59,490 nucleotides of DNA from Desulfobacca acetoxidans (GCA_020722205.1 DYLF01000005.1:1-59490); one strand, 5' to 3'; counted from the stretch's first letter, positions 9,378 to 59,490 are shown. Notes: generated by a model not told the origin, from the sequence alone. Translations and numbers: made by a program.

Positions 9378-10211
9378 GTGAACGCCTGGATGATTAATGT
9401 TCTTTTAGGATTCTGCGTTCTTTGCTGGCCTGCTACTGGAGCCGCAGAGGGTTGGAGACACAGCGCTCCCCAGTGGCATACCTTGAGCAGGGGTCTTAGT
9501 TTTACTGAAACTCAGGTCTGGTTAAATGAAGAGCCGGTGGAACAGCTGGCTGTGGTCAAGATCGACCCCCACGCCAATTACTTTCGGGTGTTTCACCATG
9601 CTCCTCAGAGCATCGTTGACTGGCAGAAAGAACTGGGAGCAACGGTGGTGTTTAATGCCAGTTATTTCTGCCCAGGTGGCAAGCCATGCGGTCTGATCAT
9701 TGCCGACGGCCGGCCGCTGGGCCCACTGAAAAACCCACAGATGCGAGGGATGTTCGTAGCGGAGCCCAAGGGAATGTCGCCGGACCTGCCCCGGGCCACC
9801 ATCCTGGATCTGCGCCTCAACCCTGTAACCTTAAGCAATTTTCCCTGGAACCAGGGGGTGCAGTCCTATCCGCTGCTCCTGGATTATAAAGGCCGCATCC
9901 GGGTGGCCAGCAGCCGGAAGACGGCCCAGCGCACCGTGGTTGCCGCCGACCGCAACAGCAATATCCTGGTGTTCAACACCAGACAGTCTTATTTCACCCT
10001 CTACCAATTGGCCCGTTTTCTCAAGACCAGCGCTTTTGAGATCGACAGCGCCCTCAATCTGGACGGCGGCACCGAAGCTCAGCTTTTTATCAAGAGCGGC
10101 GAGTTCGAATATTTTTCTCCGCCGGGCTGGCACTCAGCCATGTATGATTTGCTTACACATCAAAAATTTTGGCTGACCACCGTTATTGGCGTGTTTCCCC
10201 GGCAGGAATAA
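9378..10211 (+). CDS. secreted phosphodiester glycosidase-like protein (DUF2233-like)
   Basis: N-terminal signal peptide (VLLGFCVLCWPATGAAEG). NASYF...GLIIADGR...QSYPLLL...RTVVAADRN...ALNLDGG pattern recalled as DUF2233/NAGPA-like. GTG start; an alternative ATG is at 9390. Confidence 0.55.
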   Translation: MNAWMINVLLGFCVLCWPATGAAEGWRHSAPQWHTLSRGLSFTETQVWLNEEPVEQLAVVKIDPHANYFRVFHHAPQSIVDWQKELGATVVFNASYFCPGGKPCGLIIADGRPLGPLKNPQMRGMFVAEPKGMSPDLPRATILDLRLNPVTLSNFPWNQGVQSYPLLLDYKGRIRVASSRKTAQRTVVAADRNSNILVFNTRQSYFTLYQLARFLKTSAFEIDSALNLDGGTEAQLFIKSGEFEYFSPPGWHSAMYDLLTHQKFWLTTVIGVFPRQE

Positions 10212-53969: not shown

Positions 53970-54370
53970 GACACCTCAAAGCCGGGCGGCGATTGGGCCG
54001 CACCACTGAACACCGCACCGCCATGCTGCGCAATCTGGTTACCTCACTCCTTGAGCACGAACGCCTCGAAACCACCCGTCCTAAGGCCAAGGAAGCCCGA
54101 CAACTGGCCGATGCCCTCATCACTTTGGCCAAACGCGGCGACCTCCATGCCCGCCGCCAGGCCTTGGCCATCGTGCGCACCAAAAAGGCCATGGCCAAAC
54201 TGTTCGGCGACTACCGGGAGCGCTACCAAAACCGCGCCGGCGGCTACACCCGAATCATTCCAGTGGGCCTCCGCCGGGGCGACGGCGCCGCCCTCTCCAT
54301 CCTTGAACTGGTCGACCACCCGGAAAAACTCCCCAAAGCCAAAAAGAAAAAGGCCGCTAGCACCGACTAA
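53966..54370 (+). CDS. rplQ: 50S ribosomal protein L17
   Basis: [32 protein letters not shown] overlap with the rpoA stop. Confidence 0.98.
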
Positions 54371-54403
54371 TTCCACCCCTTCCCTAATACCCAACCAAAC
54401 CCG

Positions 54404-54434
54404 GACGGGAGGATAACCCTCCCGTCTCTCTTCC
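54404..54434 (+). terminator. hairpin terminator candidate after rplQ
   Basis: GACGGGAGG (54404-12), loop ATAAC, CCTCCCGTC (54418-26), followed by a pyrimidine-rich TCTCTCTTCC tail rather than a clean U-run. Confidence 0.4.
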
Positions 54435-54551
54435 CAGGAGTATCTCTCCCCCCCTGGCGGGCCCGTTTACTCTGCCCCCAAATTTAAGCGCCAATTTCAA
54501 TCGCCTCTATACCTATTAACTTTATATTATTAACTTTGGAGCATCTCATCC

Positions 54552-54586
54552 CCTCTCCCCCCTCGGAGAGGACAAGGATAAGGGGG
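54552..54586. repeat. GC-rich hairpin element CCTCTCC...GGAGAGG + ACAAGGATAAGGGGG tail
   Basis: A 7-bp stem at 54552-58 / 54565-71 with loop CCCCTC. The tail resembles that of the element at 52723. It lies between the rplQ terminator and res. Confidence 0.55.
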
Positions 54587-54691
54587 AAAAAAGACTCTTG
54601 CAGAGTTCATCATATTTGACCTTTGATTCTCTTTCATCCTATAATGTGTTAAAAATCCTGGTCTTACACCAATCGTTTGCGGTGGCTATTG

Positions 54692-57600
54692 ATGCGACAG
54701 GTCATCATCGAAAACCCCGTCATAAACTCCCCCTTCGAGGAACCTCGCCGCCATTTCCGCTTCACCAATGAGGGGATTACCAATGAGATTGTCCCCCAGC
54801 GCCGGATAAGCTCCTACTTCATCCCCATCCCCAAGCCCAAAAAGAAGGGCAAACAGCTTTACTTCGACACCGAGTGGCTCCAGGAGCGCATTGAGGAAAA
54901 TAAATTCATCAACCGGGTGCGCCAACGCGTGGCTATGTGGCGGCAGGGCGGCTACCTGGGTATCACCAAAACCACGGCCCGTTTGCTGGCATACTGGCAA
55001 CGGCCAGACCGGGAGAAGAAGCTCTTTTTCTGCCAGATTGAAGCCCTGGAGACCGTCATCTACATCACCGAAGTGGCCAAAAAGTTTGGCGACGCCTGGA
55101 TTGAAAATGAGATCCGCCAGGGCAATCAGGGGGCCAACCCCCTCCTTTATCGTACCGCCGTAAAAATGGCCACCGGCAGCGGCAAGACCGTGGTCATGGC
55201 CATGCTCATTGCCTGGCACACCTTGAACAAGCTGGCCAACCCCCAGGATGCCCGCTTCACCGACACCTTCCTGGTGGTGACCCCCGGCATCACCATCCGA
55301 GACCGGCTCCGGGTGCTCCTCCCCCATCTCCCCGACAATTACTATCACAAGTGGGACTTGGTGCCCCCTGACCTGAAGCCGGAACTGGTCAAGGCCAAGA
55401 TTCTCATCACCAATTACCATGCCTTCCTACTTCGGGAGAAGGCGGCCGCCGGGAAGCTAACCAAGACCATCCTGGCCAAAGGGGAGGCCAGCCCCTTCAC
55501 CGAGACCCCCGACGAGATGGTGCGCCGGGTGTGCCGGGCGTTGGGCACCAAGAAAAACATCGTGGTCATTAATGATGAAGCCCACCATTGCTATCGCCGC
55601 AAGCCCGACGGGGTGGAGGAGAAGCTCACCGGCGACGAGCGGAAAGAAGCCCAAAAGCGGGAAGAAGCCGCCAGGGTCTGGATTTCCGGCCTGGAAGCCA
55701 TTCAGGCCAAGCTAGGCATCAAGGTGGTCTACGACCTCTCCGCTACCCCCTTTTTCCTGCGAGGCTCCGGCTATCCCGAAGGCACCCTCTTCCCCTGGGT
55801 GGTCTCCGACTTCTCACTTATCGACGCCATCGAGTCCGGTATCGTCAAGGTGCCCAGGGTGCCCGTGGCCGACGACTCCATGGTAGGAGAGCAGCCCACC
55901 TATCGAGACCTTTGGCTCCGTATCCGGGAGAACCTCCCCAAGAAGGGACGCAAGACCGAAGCCGTAAGCGGCGAACCCAAGCTCCCCGCCGAACTTCAGG
56001 GGGCGCTCCTGAGCCTCTACGGCAACTATGAAAAATATTACCGTCAGTGGGAGCAGAACGCCGAGGCCCAGGCCAAGGGTCAGACCCCGCCGGTCTTCAT
56101 CGTGGTCTGCAACAATACCAATGTCTCCAAGCTCGTCTTCGATTTCATCTCCGGGTGGGAGAAACACCTACCAGACGGTTCCAGCGTGGTCGTCCCCGGC
56201 CAACTCCCCATCTTCAGTAATGTCAGAGACGGGAAATGGGTGGTAAGGCCCAACTCCATCCTCATCGACAGCGAGCAGTTGGAATCCGGCGAGGCCATGA
56301 GCGACGAGTTCAAGAAGCTGGCCGCCCGTGAAATCGAGGAGTTTAAGACCGAATACCGCCTCCGCTTCCCTGGCCGCAACGTGGAGCAGATCACCGACGA
56401 AGACCTCCTTCGCGAGGTGATGAACACCATCGGCAAGCCCGGCAAGCTGGGAGAGCAGGTCAAATGCGTGGTCTCCGTCTCCATGCTCACCGAAGGCTGG
56501 GACGCCAATACCGTGACCCACATTTTGGGAGTTCGGGCCTTTGGCACCCAACTGCTCTGCGAGCAGGTGGTGGGCCGGGGTCTGCGCCGTCGGGGCTTCG
56601 CTATTGAATCTCGCAGCTTCACCGTCAACGGCCAGGAAGTCGCTCTGGAGGCGTTTCCGGTGGAATATGCCGAGGTCTACGGCGTGCCCTTCTCCTTTAT
56701 CCCCTGTGCCGGGTCAGGTGGAACTCCCAAGCCCGGCCCCATCCCCACCCGGGTGCGGGCGCTCCCGGAGCGCCTTGCCTGCGAAATCACTTTTCCTCGG
56801 CTTATCGGCTACCGCTATGACCTGGCCGGGGAGACCCTCACCGCCAAGTTCACCGACGACTCCAAGTATGACCTCTCCACCGCCGACATTCCCACCTGGA
56901 CGGAAAACGCCCCCATTGTGGGGGAGTCCAGCATCCAGACCCTGGACGACCTGAAGCGCCGCCGGGAGCAGGAAGTGGTTTTCCTCCTGGCCAAACTGGT
57001 CTTGGAAAAATATTTTCGCCAGGACGGCGAGAAGCTCAAAGACCGCCCAGCGGAGCACCATTTTGACGCCGACGTGCAGGCGTGGCTCTTTCCCCAGATT
57101 TTGCAGATCACCCGGCGCTGGCTCAAGGAGTGCGTCATCCTCAAGGACAACACCTTCCCCCAGATGCTTCTCTTGATTGAGTTCGCCCACAACGCTGCCG
57201 ACCGTATCTATCAGGCCATCGTCTCCTCCACCACCGGCAAGAAGACCCTCAAACCTATCCTGCGGCCCTACGACACCATCGGCTCCACCCGCTTTGTGGA
57301 CTTCGACACCACCCGGCCCGTGTATGAGACCCGCCCGGATAAGTGCCACATCTCCCATGTGGTGGCCGACACCGAGTCCTGGGAGCAGAAAATGGCCCAG
57401 ACCCTGGAGGAGATGGACGAGGTCGTCTGCTATGCCAAGAACCACAACCTGGGCTTCGCCATCCCCTACACCATCGACGGCGAAGAGAAGAACTATTATC
57501 CTGACTTCCTGGTGCGCCTGAAGATTGATGGGCAGGAAGAACCGCTGAATCTCATTATTGAGGTCACCGGCGAGAAGAAAAAAGAGAAGGCCGCCAAGGT

Positions 57601-57751
57601 GACCACGGCCCGGATGCTGTGGGTGCCTGCCGTCAACAACCACGGCGGCTTTGGCCGCTGGGCCTTCCTGGAAATCGCTGACCCCTGGGACGCCCAGAAG
57701 CTCATCCGGGGCTTCCTGGCCACCATTCCCCAGCCGGAAAGCCGTTCATGA
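54692..57751 (+). CDS. res: Type III restriction enzyme Res-like subunit (SF2 helicase + PD-ExK-like nuclease)
   Basis: MRQVIIENPVINSPFEEP start. Walker A MATGSGKT, DEAH box NDEAHH, LSATPF, TEGWDANTV, QVVGRGLRR, and C-terminal YYPDFLV...IIEVTGEKK. I prefer the ATG at 54692 over the ORF track TTG at 54677. Confidence 0.85.
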   Translation: MRQVIIENPVINSPFEEPRRHFRFTNEGITNEIVPQRRISSYFIPIPKPKKKGKQLYFDTEWLQERIEENKFINRVRQRVAMWRQGGYLGITKTTARLLAYWQRPDREKKLFFCQIEALETVIYITEVAKKFGDAWIENEIRQGNQGANPLLYRTAVKMATGSGKTVVMAMLIAWHTLNKLANPQDARFTDTFLVVTPGITIRDRLRVLLPHLPDNYYHKWDLVPPDLKPELVKAKILITNYHAFLLREKAAAGKLTKTILAKGEASPFTETPDEMVRRVCRALGTKKNIVVINDEAHHCYRRKPDGVEEKLTGDERKEAQKREEAARVWISGLEAIQAKLGIKVVYDLSATPFFLRGSGYPEGTLFPWVVSDFSLIDAIESGIVKVPRVPVADDSMVGEQPTYRDLWLRIRENLPKKGRKTEAVSGEPKLPAELQGALLSLYGNYEKYYRQWEQNAEAQAKGQTPPVFIVVCNNTNVSKLVFDFISGWEKHLPDGSSVVVPGQLPIFSNVRDGKWVVRPNSILIDSEQLESGEAMSDEFKKLAAREIEEFKTEYRLRFPGRNVEQITDEDLLREVMNTIGKPGKLGEQVKCVVSVSMLTEGWDANTVTHILGVRAFGTQLLCEQVVGRGLRRRGFAIESRSFTVNGQEVALEAFPVEYAEVYGVPFSFIPCAGSGGTPKPGPIPTRVRALPERLACEITFPRLIGYRYDLAGETLTAKFTDDSKYDLSTADIPTWTENAPIVGESSIQTLDDLKRRREQEVVFLLAKLVLEKYFRQDGEKLKDRPAEHHFDADVQAWLFPQILQITRRWLKECVILKDNTFPQMLLLIEFAHNAADRIYQAIVSSTTGKKTLKPILRPYDTIGSTRFVDFDTTRPVYETRPDKCHISHVVADTESWEQKMAQTLEEMDEVVCYAKNHNLGFAIPYTIDGEEKNYYPDFLVRLKIDGQEEPLNLIIEVTGEKKKEKAAKVTTARMLWVPAVNNHGGFGRWAFLEIADPWDAQKLIRGFLATIPQPESRS

Positions 57752-58005
57752 GCCGGAAAAACCTCCTCCACAAACTGGCCCAGGGGCACCTGCAAAATGT
57801 GGCGTTCAAGGAGTTCGTCAACCTGGTGGAGGGCTTCGGGTTCAAACTCCTGCGCACCAGCGGCAGCCACCACATCTTCGGTCACCCAGACATCCCGGAA
57901 CTGGTCAATCTCCAGGATGTCGGGGGCCGGGCCAAACCCTAGCAAATCCGCCACTTCCTTCGCTTGGTGGAAAGGTATAATATTAAGTTGTTGGAGGACA
58001 GGTGA
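57748..58005 (+). pseudogene. hicA: HicA-family toxin interrupted by an in-frame TAG (open part 57748-57942)
   Basis: ...LRTSGSHHIFGHPDIPELVNLQDVGGRAKP-TAG-QIRHFLRLVERYNIKLLEDR-TGA. The frame continues 20 codons past the TAG and its TGA overlaps the next ATG (TGATG at 58003-07). Its ATG overlaps the res stop (ATGA). Confidence 0.65.
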
Positions 58006-58226
58006 TGGGCGACTACCACATCAATATCATTTACAGTGACGAAGACGGCGGCTACATCGCCGATATTCCCGACCTGGATTCCTGTTCTGCCTTCGGCCAA
58101 ACCCCGCAGCAGGCCCTGGCCGAAGTGGAGCAGGCGAAAAAGGCGTGGTTGGCCGCGGCGGCTCAGGCAGGCAAGCCCATTCCGCCGCCCCGCTATCGCC
58201 CGGTGATTTACCAGGTTTCCCGGTAA
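58005..58226 (+). CDS. hicB: HicB-family antitoxin (short form, no DNA-binding domain)
   Basis: MGDYHINIIYSDEDGGYIADIPDLDSCSAFGQTPQQALAEVEQAKKAWL...GKPIPPPRYRP is a HicB N-terminal fold pattern. The GTG at 58002 is the alternative start. Confidence 0.75.
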   Translation: MGDYHINIIYSDEDGGYIADIPDLDSCSAFGQTPQQALAEVEQAKKAWLAAAAQAGKPIPPPRYRPVIYQVSR

Positions 58227-58257
58227 GGGAACAGCAACAGCCCCTTGAGGAGGTTTC

Positions 58258-58476
58258 ATGAAGCTATTTACCGCTTATGTGGAATGGGACCCGGAGACCC
58301 AACTCTATGTGGGTTTGGTGCCCGGCATCCCCGGCGCGCACACCCAGGCGGCGACCCTGGATGAACTGCAACTCAATCTTAAAGAAGTCCTGGAACTGTG
58401 CCTGGAAGAATACCCCCTGCCTCCGGAGGAACTGCCAAGATTTGTCGGTTTGCAACAGATTGAGGTGAACGCGTGA
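58258..58476 (+). CDS. hicB: HicB/UPF0150-family antitoxin (short form)
   Basis: 72 aa. MKLFTAYVEWDPETQLYVGLVPGIPGAHTQAATLDELQLNLKEVLELCLEE. GAGGAGG SD upstream. Confidence 0.7.
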   Translation: MKLFTAYVEWDPETQLYVGLVPGIPGAHTQAATLDELQLNLKEVLELCLEEYPLPPEELPRFVGLQQIEVNA

Positions 58477-58706
58477 CCCGGCTGCCCATCGTGGATTGCC
58501 GCACCATGGAAAAGGTTCTGTTTAGTTTAGGCTTTAAATCGGTCCGGCAAAAGGGCAGCCATGTCTTTTACCGCCACCCGGATGGCCGCACCACCACCGT
58601 GCCGCACCATCCGGGCCGGAATCTGGCCCGGCCCCTGACCCGGGAAATCCTCCGGGAAATCGAGGTGTCCCCGGATCAGTTTCAGGAAGTTTTGCAAAGC
58701 CTGTAG
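58473..58706 (+). CDS. hicA: HicA-family toxin (mRNA interferase)
   Basis: 77 aa. RLPIVDCRTMEKVLFSLGFKSVRQKGSHVFYRHPDGRTTTVPHHPGRNL. The GTG start overlaps the hicB stop (GTGA). Confidence 0.75.
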   Translation: MTRLPIVDCRTMEKVLFSLGFKSVRQKGSHVFYRHPDGRTTTVPHHPGRNLARPLTREILREIEVSPDQFQEVLQSL

Positions 58707-58759
58707 GGTGCGCCCTGCGCACCATTTAACTTACCCCCACTTTACAGGAAGGCACCACC

Positions 58760-59490
58760 ATGGCCGGTAAGAAAGGCGATACCCCCACCCCCATCTTCGA
58801 TTTCAAGTATAAAGATAAGCGCCGGAACATTCCCACCAGGGAACTGCGGGATTTTGCGGAGGAGATGGAGAAAAAGCCTCCGTCCCTGCGCTATCCCCGA
58901 GACCCGTCCCTGGACCCGCAACTGGTCTGGAAGGGGAAGGACGAACAGGACGCCCGGCCCCTGGAAGTCCCGGTGGTGCCCATCTATATCCAGGAAAAAA
59001 TTCTCCCCCAGGCCATCATCGAAGAGGTGCGGGCCCAGGCTAAAGGCGAGCGGCCTGAGGGCCAGAAATCCCTCTTTGATGATTTCAACGGCCTGGATGA
59101 CTTTGAAAAGAAGGTGGAGTTCTATCAACATGAGCAGAACTGGACGAACCGCCTCATCCTGGGGGACTCCCTCCTGGTGATGACCTCCCTGGCCGAAAAG
59201 GAGGGCTTGCAGGGCCAGGTGCAGATGATCTACCTCGACCCGCCCTACGGCATCAAGTTCGGCTCCAACTGGCAGGTCTCCACCCGCAAGCGGGAAGTAA
59301 AGGACGGCAAGGCCGAAGACCTCACCCGCCAGCCTGAACAAATCCGGGCCTACCGGGACACCTGGAAACTGGGCATCCATTCCTATCTGACCTACCTGCG
59401 GGACCGCCTAACGGTGGCCAGGGAGTTGCTCACCGAAACCGGCAGTATCTTTGTTCAGATCGGCGATGAGAATGTGCATCTGGTGCGGTG
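58760..59490 (+). CDS. mod: beta-class N6-adenine DNA methyltransferase (Type III Mod-like), 3' end outside window
   Basis: An open frame from ATG 58760 to the window end, 243 codons with no stop, so it is absent from the ORF track. NRLILGDSLLVMTSL...VQMIYLDPPYGIKFGSNWQ (DPPY motif IV). Confidence 0.85.
   Translation, partial: MAGKKGDTPTPIFDFKYKDKRRNIPTRELRDFAEEMEKKPPSLRYPRDPSLDPQLVWKGKDEQDARPLEVPVVPIYIQEKILPQAIIEEVRAQAKGERPEGQKSLFDDFNGLDDFEKKVEFYQHEQNWTNRLILGDSLLVMTSLAEKEGLQGQVQMIYLDPPYGIKFGSNWQVSTRKREVKDGKAEDLTRQPEQIRAYRDTWKLGIHSYLTYLRDRLTVARELLTETGSIFVQIGDENVHLVR

What the first reader, a model, noticed from the sequence alone, without database searches (positions are those of the whole stretch)
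54692..59490. Type III-like R-M operon split by two mirrored HicAB modules, translationally coupled to res
Res (helicase motifs plus a PD-ExK-like C-terminus) and a DPPY Mod methyltransferase face the same way but are separated by 1.0 kb. That interval carries hicA-hicB then hicB-hicA, in mirrored order. The junctions are tight: res stop/hicA start ATGA (57748-51), hicA frame/hicB TGATG, hicB2/hicA2 GTGA. Only 31- and 53-nt gaps occur elsewhere; the latter holds a small GGTGCGC-CCT-GCGCACC hairpin at 58707-23. Both HicB proteins are short (73 and 72 aa) and lack the C-terminal RHH/HTH domain used for autoregulation, so their expression probably depends on the res transcript. This looks like an integrated restriction plus abortive-infection/addiction unit rather than chance neighbours. 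It starts right after the rplQ terminator with no integrase or transposase in view. It is the best candidate for an undescribed composite defence arrangement in this window, though the window ends inside mod and anything downstream is unseen.
Basis: partly seen in the sequence, partly recalled or inferred. Interest (0 to 1): 0.65.

Follow-up and report, generated by a model that had tools for sequence, protein, structure and literature searches.

The report
Toxin-antitoxin cargo inside restriction operon
Two small toxin-antitoxin gene pairs, one with a dead toxin, sit in a slot between the two genes of a restriction-modification operon where relatives carry other guest genes, so this is one more example of a known habit of bacterial defence loci and not a new defence machine.

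Summary
Res (54692-57751), hicA1, hicB1, hicB2, hicA2 and the start of mod (58760-) lie head to tail, with the reported ATGA, TGATG and GTGA overlaps and 31- and 53-nt gaps. One point was missed here: hicA1 carries an in-frame TAG (57940-42) where every relative has Tyr, so that toxin is truncated.

The window is a whole contig. Its end overlaps another contig, which gives a 963-aa Mod followed by a PDC-M04 candidate defence pair.

Res belongs to the NCBIfam BPTD_3080 family. In 122 distinct relatives with mod in view the order is always res then mod. Thirty-seven are adjacent. Eighty-five carry unrelated cargo in between, including GmrSD, ABC ATPases, the DUF5131 pair, Fic and other toxin-antitoxin pairs. 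This cargo is co-oriented and often overlaps the res stop.

Both HicAB types also stand alone elsewhere. The exact composite recurs in three metagenome contigs at about 84% nucleotide identity, starting at a conserved promoter, and is under purifying selection. One of those copies has both toxins intact; the other two have hicA2 frameshifted.

Verdict: a co-transcribed block that travels as a unit, but an instance of known "defence-system embedding". Functional integration with restriction is unproven.

The parts
54616..54645 (+). sigma70-like promoter of the operon (TTGACC, 18 nt, TATAAT)
   Evidence: It matches 11 of 12 consensus positions. The -35 TTGAC and -10 TATAAT are invariant in window, L100, L101, L004 and L078 while the flanks diverge. 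Nucleotide homology with L100/L101 starts exactly here.
54692..57751 (+). res, a 1019-aa Type III-like restriction subunit of the BPTD_3080 family
   Evidence: NCBIfam NF046055 scores 1184 bits against a cutoff of 800. Pfam finds ResIII and RE_endonuc. Motifs present: GSGKT at aa 162, DEAHH at 295, GRGLRR at 628, and YPDFLV...EVTGEKK at 936-963.
57748..58005 (+). hicA1, a toxin-first-type HicA gene broken by an in-frame stop (the open part is 57748-57942, 64 aa)
   Evidence: Pfam HicA_toxin. TAG at 57940-42 replaces TAT (Tyr65) of L100, L101 and L122. The lost 20 aa are nearly invariant in 12 homologues. They form the C-terminal helix 64-77 of the predicted HicA fold, pLDDT 92.7; the best fold match is B. 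pseudomallei HicA 6G26.
57940..57942 (+). premature TAG stop in hicA1
   Evidence: TAG is also the normal stop of hicA2 (58704-06), so recoding is unlikely.
58005..58226 (+). hicB1, an intact 73-aa single-domain HicB antitoxin
   Evidence: Pfam HicB_lk_antitox E = 9e-6. More than 5400 homologues, many named HicB family antitoxin. dN/dS against L100 is 0.10.
58258..58476 (+). hicB2, an intact 72-aa single-domain HicB antitoxin unrelated in sequence to hicB1
   Evidence: Pfam UPF0150/HicB_lk. PDB 1WV8 (TTHA1013) E = 0.0015. No BLASTP match to HicB1. More than 4400 homologues across phyla.
58473..58706 (+). hicA2, an intact 77-aa HicA toxin (GTG start overlapping the hicB2 stop)
   Evidence: Pfam HicA_toxin scores 64.5 bits over profile positions 2-57 of 58. 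PDB 1WHZ E = 2.7e-7. The GSH motif is present.
58703..58725 (+). GTAG + GC-rich hairpin (CTGTAGGGTGCGCCCTGCGCACCAT); its TAG is the hicA2 stop codon
   Evidence: local fold -18.3 kcal/mol, z = -2.35. The same unit lies upstream of mod in L004 and L121 and is degenerate in L100 and L122. The T-tail is weak, so it is not a canonical terminator.
58760..59490 (+). mod, first 243 of 963 codons (beta-class N6-adenine methyltransferase, DPPY at 59237-48); it continues on contig C16
   Evidence: A 55-nt exact overlap of C106 with the reverse complement of C16 gives one open frame of 963 aa, colinear with the Mod of L100. PADLOC MTase_III PDLC03632 scores 942 bits. Pfam N6_N4_Mtase.

Best explanation
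This is a Type III-like restriction-modification operon of the BPTD_3080 family, with gene order res then mod. Its res-mod junction serves as a cargo slot.

In this genome the slot holds two unrelated, promoter-less mini-HicAB toxin-antitoxin modules. One belongs to a family that is always toxin-first (hicA1-hicB1). The other belongs to a family that is always antitoxin-first (hicB2-hicA2). The mirrored order is therefore a by-product of stacking two module types.

All six genes are most likely read from one promoter upstream of res (54616-45) as a single mRNA, with translational coupling at the 4- to 5-nt overlaps (inferred). Res and Mod would act as an ordinary Type III enzyme (inferred from family).

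HicA2, an RNase held in check by HicB2, is the only live toxin. hicA1 is knocked out by a Tyr65-to-stop change, which leaves HicB1 as an orphan antitoxin. The TA guests most plausibly act as addiction or hitch-hiking modules that stabilise and travel with the R-M block. Any role as a back-up abortive-infection trigger when expression of the operon is shut off is possible but untested.
For: Family and slot:
- Res matches NF046055 at 1184 bits. Mod matches PADLOC MTase_III.
- In every one of the 130 loci where both genes were in view, mod lies downstream of res on the same strand.
- After de-duplication, 37 of 122 alleles are empty and 85 carry cargo. Cargo class changes at least 58 times on the Res tree, against 70.3 +/- 2.7 when shuffled.
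- Cargo includes GmrSD, ABC ATPases, DUF5131 with PDC-M41A, Fic, an IS200-like gene, HNH, PDC-M04 and other TA pairs.
- Among gap ORFs of at least 100 aa, 112 are co-oriented and 17 are not.
- The first cargo ORF overlaps the res stop in 20 of 43 loci and starts within 30 nt in 16 more.

TA modules are independent:
- hicA1B1 stands free between holA and rpsT and in a BrnT islet.
- hicB2A2 stands free beside a cyclophilin-like gene.
- hicB2A2 also occurs with an RHH gene in the slot of another Res allele.

Block inheritance:
- L100, L101 and L122 carry the same six genes at 83-84% nucleotide identity, beginning at the promoter, with different flanks.
- dN/dS is 0.10-0.25 for all genes.
- The overlaps are conserved, and so is the promoter.

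Toxin decay:
- The window has TAG in hicA1.
- L100 and L101 have a 1-nt deletion in hicA2.
- L122 has both toxins intact.
Against:
- Low dN/dS in both TA pairs and conservation of the composite in four contigs could also mean the host selects for the guests. This would fit a functional partnership with the R-M system.
- The TAG in hicA1 rests on one base of a metagenome-style assembly that I could not check against reads.
- The hairpin before mod could attenuate read-through into mod.
Confidence: 0.75

Rival explanations
1. One reading: a functionally integrated restriction plus abortive-infection unit. HicA toxins are expressed only from the res transcript and fire when a phage blocks or shuts down the R-M operon, much as PrrC backs up EcoprrI.
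For: - There is a single conserved promoter and the overlaps are conserved.
- The short HicBs have no DNA-binding domain.
- The composite is kept in four contigs under purifying selection.
- HicA1B1-type pairs recur in the slot at several separate places on the Res tree (window clade, L082, L128/L130, L138).
- Back-up roles of embedded systems are known for PrrC and BrxU.
Against: - 30% of family members have no cargo and most others have unrelated cargo.
- Both modules work as free-standing units elsewhere.
- The closest Res allele has a different TA pair.
- One toxin is dead in three of four composites.
- No evidence of physical or regulatory coupling exists.
Confidence: 0.17
2. The TA pairs are decaying junk in a 'genomic sink'. 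They were inserted because a defence locus tolerates insertions, and they have no present function beyond what remains of addiction.
For: - hicA1 carries a nonsense mutation here and hicA2 a frameshift in L100/L101.
- hicA genes are shortened or missing in free-standing copies: 58, 63, 64, 66 or 70 aa, or absent.
- The own genome holds a gutted second mod/res remnant.
Against: dN/dS is 0.10-0.16 for hicA1, hicB1 and hicB2 over dS of 0.3-0.6. Both antitoxins and one toxin are intact in every copy, and L122 keeps all four genes.
Confidence: 0.06
3. Assembly artefact: the block, the join to contig C16 or the TAG is a mis-assembly or base-call error in a fragmented (180-contig) genome.
For: The genome is fragmented, and the window ends inside mod at a 55-nt k-mer overlap. 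The reads could not be inspected.
Against: The same gene order and junctions occur in three independent metagenome contigs. The joined Mod is one open 963-aa frame colinear with homologues. Only the single-base TAG remains unverifiable.
Confidence: 0.02

Closest known systems
Genes embedded in multi-gene defence systems ('guilt-by-embedding'; Payne, Hughes, Fineran & Jackson, bioRxiv 10.1101/2024.01.29.577857)
   Same: Guest genes are nested between the genes of a defence system and almost always co-oriented (96.7% in that study). The guest repertoire also matches: GmrSD-like, ABC ATPases, and PDC-M04 and PDC-M41.
   Different: That study analysed Hma, BREX, DISARM and Type I R-M. The scaffold here is a two-gene Type III-like (BPTD_3080) operon with a single slot, often joined by a 4-nt overlap with the res stop. 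The guests here are plain TA pairs.
PrrC anticodon nuclease embedded in the EcoprrI Type I R-M locus
   Same: A latent RNase is lodged inside an R-M operon (as summarised).
   Different: PrrC is held inactive by the R-M enzyme itself and released by a phage peptide. Here each HicA has its own antitoxin, and no link to Res/Mod is shown.
Classical Type III R-M (EcoP15I / EcoP1I, Mod2Res)
   Same: A beta-class DPPY Mod, and a Res with SF2 helicase motifs and a C-terminal PD-(D/E)xK-type nuclease.
   Different: The gene order is res then mod. Mod is 963 aa with a long C-terminal extension. Res matches the classical models only weakly: 24 bits to NF012027 and 30 bits to PADLOC REase_III.
HicAB type II toxin-antitoxin systems (B. 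pseudomallei HicAB 6G26; Y. pestis HicA3B3 4P78; T. thermophilus TTHA1013 1WV8 / 1WHZ)
   Same: The HicA fold and His-containing motif. The HicB N-terminal domain. Overlapping gene pairs.
   Different: Both HicBs are single-domain, like TTHA1013, and lack the RHH/HTH domain used for autoregulation. HicA1 has an extra N-terminal helix and is truncated here.

Membership tests
BPTD_3080 family restriction endonuclease (NCBIfam NF046055) | Full-length match above the curated cutoff (800 bits) | tested here: met
   1184 bits, residues 6-1005 on profile positions 1-966 of 970.
Type III restriction-modification | Res with SF2 helicase motifs and a C-terminal PD-(D/E)xK-type endonuclease domain | tested here: met
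   Pfam ResIII and RE_endonuc. GSGKT, DEAHH, GRGLRR and YPDFLV...EVTGEKK are present. Matches to the classical Type III Res models are weak.
Type III restriction-modification | Beta-class N6-adenine Mod: motif IV (DPPY) before motif I (FxGxG), with the TRD between them | tested here: met
   DPPY at aa 160 and DPTCGSGTT at aa 446. PADLOC MTase_III scores 942 bits.
Type III restriction-modification | Canonical operon order mod then res | tested here: not met
   In all 130 loci where both genes were in view, mod lies downstream of res on the same strand.
Type III restriction-modification | ATP-dependent cleavage needing two inversely oriented unmethylated sites, with hemimethylation by Mod | not testable with these tools
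   Needs biochemistry and a methylome.
HicA toxin | Pfam HicA_toxin above the gathering score, and the HicA (dsRBD-like) fold | tested here: met
   HicA2 scores 64.5 bits and HicA1 30.4-31.7 bits, against a cutoff of 27. The model of the intact HicA1 allele matches 6G26 HicA with probability 1.00 and TM 0.77.
HicA toxin | Intact reading frame | tested here: not met
   hicA1 is not intact: TAG at codon 65 removes helix 64-77. hicA2 is intact.
HicB antitoxin | HicB N-terminal (partial RNase H-like) domain encoded next to hicA | tested here: inconclusive
   Pfam HicB_lk_antitox/UPF0150 score 22-26 bits, just under the 27-bit cutoffs. The PDB profile hit to HicB3 has E = 0.09, and HicB2 hits TTHA1013 with E = 0.0015. 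Homologues are named HicB by NCBI. Both genes overlap a hicA gene.
HicB antitoxin | C-terminal RHH/HTH DNA-binding domain (present in the characterised autoregulating HicBs) | tested here: not met
   The proteins are 73 and 72 aa and cover only profile positions 2-58 of 123.
Embedded defence cargo (guilt-by-embedding) | Lies between genes of one multi-gene defence system, is co-oriented, and varies among homologous systems | tested here: met
PDC-M04 candidate defence system (off window, after mod) | Both proteins match the PADLOC PDC-M04A and PDC-M04B models | tested here: met
   315 and 224 bits. The A protein is DUF3800.

The most novel reading that the evidence does not exclude
The res-mod junction of BPTD_3080-type operons may be a dedicated cassette-exchange site found across phyla. 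Promoter-less guests would be spliced in so that they are translationally coupled to res (NTGA overlap), and swapped between alleles by recombination in the conserved gene ends. On this reading, mini-HicAB modules without a DNA-binding domain use the operon's transcript as their only expression signal. A phage that shuts off or degrades the R-M message would then release HicA as a second line of defence. The reciprocal loss of one toxin per lineage would reflect a limit on toxin dosage.
Probability: 0.2. Interest if true: 0.55.

Novelty: new member of a known kind. Interest (0 to 1): 0.3.

Why it matters
It adds a two-gene Type III-like R-M family to the defence systems known to host embedded guests. 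About 70% of its alleles are occupied, and their contents mirror those of Hma, BREX and Type I systems. The slot could therefore be mined for further defence candidates.

The TA pairs are exchangeable guests, one already dead, and not parts of a new composite machine.

Tried and rejected
I could not check the TAG or the C106-C16 join against reads, nor look for a polycistronic transcript.
- An exact-sequence look-up of Res found no longer contig.
- Stop-codon recoding of the hicA1 TAG is rejected, because hicA2 in the same operon ends in TAG.
- An empty-site comparison failed. rplQ and the yhaM-like gene that follows the island are unlinked in all 25 relatives searched, and no genome of the same genus is held.
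- Rfam found nothing in 54300-59490.
- I tested whether the hairpin before mod is a general seam signal. GTAG-plus-hairpin units occur only in the window's close clade: 4 hits in 128 kb of slot sequence against 22 in 1.77 Mb elsewhere. That idea is dropped. The hairpin is also not conserved in L100 or L122.
- The two HicAB pairs are not a duplication or an inverted repeat. HicB1 and HicB2 share no detectable similarity.
- A PDB sequence search with Res gave no hit. The HicB1 profile against PDB gave only weak hits.
- The literature search for 'BPTD_3080' found nothing.
Full report
**Observation.** ORF listing and the raw sequence confirm every coordinate in the finding.
- res runs 54692-57751. 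The hicA1 ATG at 57748 overlaps the res TGA (ATGA).
- The hicA1 frame ends in a TGA that overlaps the hicB1 ATG at 58005 (TGATG).
- hicB1 ends at 58226. After 31 nt, hicB2 runs 58258-58476.
- The hicA2 GTG at 58473 overlaps the hicB2 TGA (GTGA). hicA2 ends at 58706.
- A 53-nt spacer with the 7-bp hairpin at 58707-23 precedes the mod ATG at 58760.

Pfam identifies the following:
- ResIII plus a C-terminal endonuclease domain in Res.
- HicA_toxin in both toxins.
- The HicB N-terminal domain in both 72-73-aa antitoxins, slightly under the cutoffs.
- N6_N4_Mtase in Mod.

One point is missing from this finding. The hicA1 frame carries TAG at 57940-42, so the toxin ORF is 64 aa and not 85.

**Beyond the window.** The window is the whole contig C106 of a 180-contig genome. 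Its last 55 nt match the end of contig C16 in reverse complement. The join gives one open 963-aa Mod. This is followed after 24 nt by a DUF3800 protein and an overlapping 162-aa protein. These two proteins are the PADLOC candidate system PDC-M04A/B. A tRNA-Ala gene on the opposite strand follows about 1.2 kb later. The join is supported by colinearity of the 963-aa Mod with homologues.

**What the R-M system is.** Res is a full-length member of NCBIfam NF046055, 'BPTD_3080 family restriction endonuclease' (1184 bits, cutoff 800). It has the SF2 helicase motifs and a PD...ExK-like C-terminus. Mod matches PADLOC MTase_III at 942 bits and has DPPY before the FxGxG motif. It is therefore Type III-like, but the gene order res then mod is the reverse of EcoP15I.

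**The slot.** I fetched 80 loci from species genomes and 80 from metagenomes that encode Res relatives of 66-92% identity from many phyla. Results:
- Wherever both genes were in view (130 loci), mod lies downstream of res on the same strand.
- After removing duplicates, 122 alleles remain. In 37 the two genes are adjacent (the aligned parts lie at most 123 nt apart, and many overlap). In 85 they are separated by 0.15-4 kb.
- The inserts are unrelated to each other. They include a DUF5131 protein with PDC-M41A (16-19 loci), ABC/AAA_15-21 ATPases (12), GmrSD (11) and Fic (4).
- Rarer inserts include an IS200-like Y1 transposase, PDDEXK_3, HNH, the PDC-M04 pair, DUF2283-type TA pairs and HicAB.
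- On a Res tree the cargo class changes at least 58 times. Label shuffles give 70.3 +/- 2.7, so turnover is close to saturation.
- Cargo ORFs of at least 100 aa are co-oriented 112 to 17, and several of the 17 are antisense artefacts.
- In the 43 cargo-bearing genome loci, the first cargo ORF overlaps the res stop in 20, mostly as NTGA, and starts within 30 nt in 16 more.

**The two HicAB modules are independent mobile units.** HicB1 and HicB2 share no detectable similarity, so the pair is not a duplication.

The HicB1 family has more than 5400 members, mostly from Desulfobaccales-like genomes.
- hicA-hicB pairs with 92-95% identical HicB stand free between holA and rpsT, and in an islet with BrnT.
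- The order is always toxin-first.

The HicB2 family has more than 4400 members across phyla.
- It stands free, always antitoxin-first, beside a cyclophilin-like gene.
- It also occurs as RHH-hicB2-hicA2 in the slot of another Res allele of 84% identity.

The mirrored order is therefore what results when a toxin-first and an antitoxin-first module are stacked. In the free-standing copies the toxin gene is often shortened or missing, which is the usual decay of TA loci.

**The composite as a block.** Three metagenome contigs from different samples carry exactly res-hicA1-hicB1-hicB2-hicA2-mod (L100, L101 = L123, L122). They are 83-84% identical to the window in nucleotides.
- Homology begins at window position 54616, the -35 box of a sigma70-like promoter (TTGACC, 18 nt, TATAAT).
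- The two promoter hexamers are invariant in five loci while the flanks diverge.
- The flanks differ. In L100, a tRNA and glyQS follow mod, and there is no PDC-M04.
- The ATGA, TGATG and GTGA overlaps are conserved. The hairpin before mod is not.
- dN/dS between the window and L100 is 0.10 (res), 0.15 (hicA1), 0.10 (hicB1), 0.16 (hicB2) and 0.25 (mod).
- dS is lower for hicB2A2 (about 0.3) than for res (0.77). This suggests that module was added or exchanged later.

Within the local Res clade the slot reads as follows:
- A1B1 only: L004.
- A1B1 + B2A2: window, L100, L101, L122.
- RHH + B2A2: L110-113.
- A DUF4258/DUF2283-like pair: L121, the closest Res at 92%.
- Other genes: L078, L020.

**Toxin status.** Codon 65 of hicA1 is TAT (Tyr) in L100, L101 and L122, and Tyr in L004 and L082. 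It is TAG in the window.
- The 20 lost residues (YQIRQFLRLVERYN...) are nearly invariant in 12 homologues.
- They form the C-terminal helix of a confidently predicted HicA fold (pLDDT 92.7). The best structural match is B. pseudomallei HicA.
- The window's HicA1 is therefore very probably inactive, and HicB1 is an orphan antitoxin.

L100 and L101 instead have a 1-nt deletion in an A-run of hicA2, just before the GSH motif. L122 keeps both toxins. hicA2 in the window is intact, with a full-length Pfam match and similarity to PDB 1WHZ.

**How it most likely works.**

Shown:
- A compact co-oriented gene block.
- One conserved promoter.
- Conserved overlaps.
- Single-domain HicBs.
- One dead and one intact toxin.
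- Cargo turnover in the family.

Inferred:
- One mRNA runs from about 54650 through mod, and perhaps through PDC-M04.
- Res and Mod act as a Type III enzyme.
- HicB2 neutralises the HicA2 RNase.
- Since the HicBs cannot bind DNA, the modules depend on upstream transcription. This also seems true of their free-standing copies, which sit 20-190 nt behind co-oriented genes.
- The guests stabilise the block and travel with it.

A back-up abortive-infection role is possible but has no support here beyond analogy with PrrC and BrxU.

**Comparison with what is known.** Embedding of guest genes in Hma, BREX, DISARM and Type I R-M systems is described by Payne et al. (bioRxiv 10.1101/2024.01.29.577857). 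That work reports 96.7% co-orientation and the same guest families (GmrSD-like, ABC ATPases, PDCs). It did not analyse Type III-like systems. No paper in the library mentions BPTD_3080.

Earlier notes of this scan report the same habit in other genomes and the same TAG. These are leads, not evidence, but my independent tests agree with them.

**Verdict.** It is nevertheless one more instance of a known phenomenon, built from known families, and not an undescribed composite system. The organism is probably a member of the Thermodesulfobacteriota (Desulfobaccales-like). This is judged only from the record titles of its closest relatives.

Noticed in passing
L003:2592-3784 (contig C16, minus strand; directly after mod, beyond the window): A DUF3800 protein (236 aa) and an overlapping 162-aa protein match PADLOC candidate system PDC-M04A/B. 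The same pair follows mod in L004 and sits inside the res-mod slot in L051.
   Followed up: partly
window 58703-58725; L004 ~5362; L121 ~9744-9795; own genome contig C56: The hairpin before mod is a 'GTAG + GC-rich palindrome' unit of REP-like form. Two or three such units stand in tandem before mod in L110, L121 and L122. The own genome has about 29 GTAG-plus-hairpin sites, five of them on a 3.6-kb contig around an IS110-like transposase. It is not a general feature of the slot.
   Followed up: partly
joined sequence 59511-60041 (Mod aa ~251-427, mostly beyond the window): The target-recognition region of Mod has no nucleotide match between the window and L100, although both flanks are 84-86% identical. 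The two alleles probably recognise different sequences.
   Followed up: no
own genome contig C43:20214-23517 and C43:1022-1437; C142:335-753; C1:1221-1477: There is a gutted second mod/res remnant (fragments only, 43-58% identity). At least three further hicB-hicA pairs occur elsewhere in the genome.
   Followed up: no
L003:2059-2134 (+) and ~L003:2415-2455: tRNA-Ala(GGC) lies on the opposite strand about 1.2 kb after the island, and a tRNA-like 3' fragment lies about 300 nt nearer to it. L100 has a tRNA right after mod and L078 a tRNA-Ser right before res. No integrase is in view.
   Followed up: partly
L110:3678-3932 (and L111-L113): An 84-aa RHH (CopG-type) gene overlaps the start of hicB2 in the res-mod slot of a related Res allele. 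It may supply in trans the DNA-binding function that the short HicB2 lacks. It is absent from the window.
   Followed up: no
L020:12576-13010; L110/L111 res 5' end; G038:C40: Several close Res alleles are split by frameshifts. This points to frequent decay of the restriction gene itself, or to assembly errors.
   Followed up: no
window 54430-54616: The 260 nt between the rplQ terminator and the res promoter hold a CCTCTCC/GGAGAGG hairpin (about 54552) that another first-stage note lists as a dispersed repeat. Homology with the other composites starts only at 54616.
   Followed up: no
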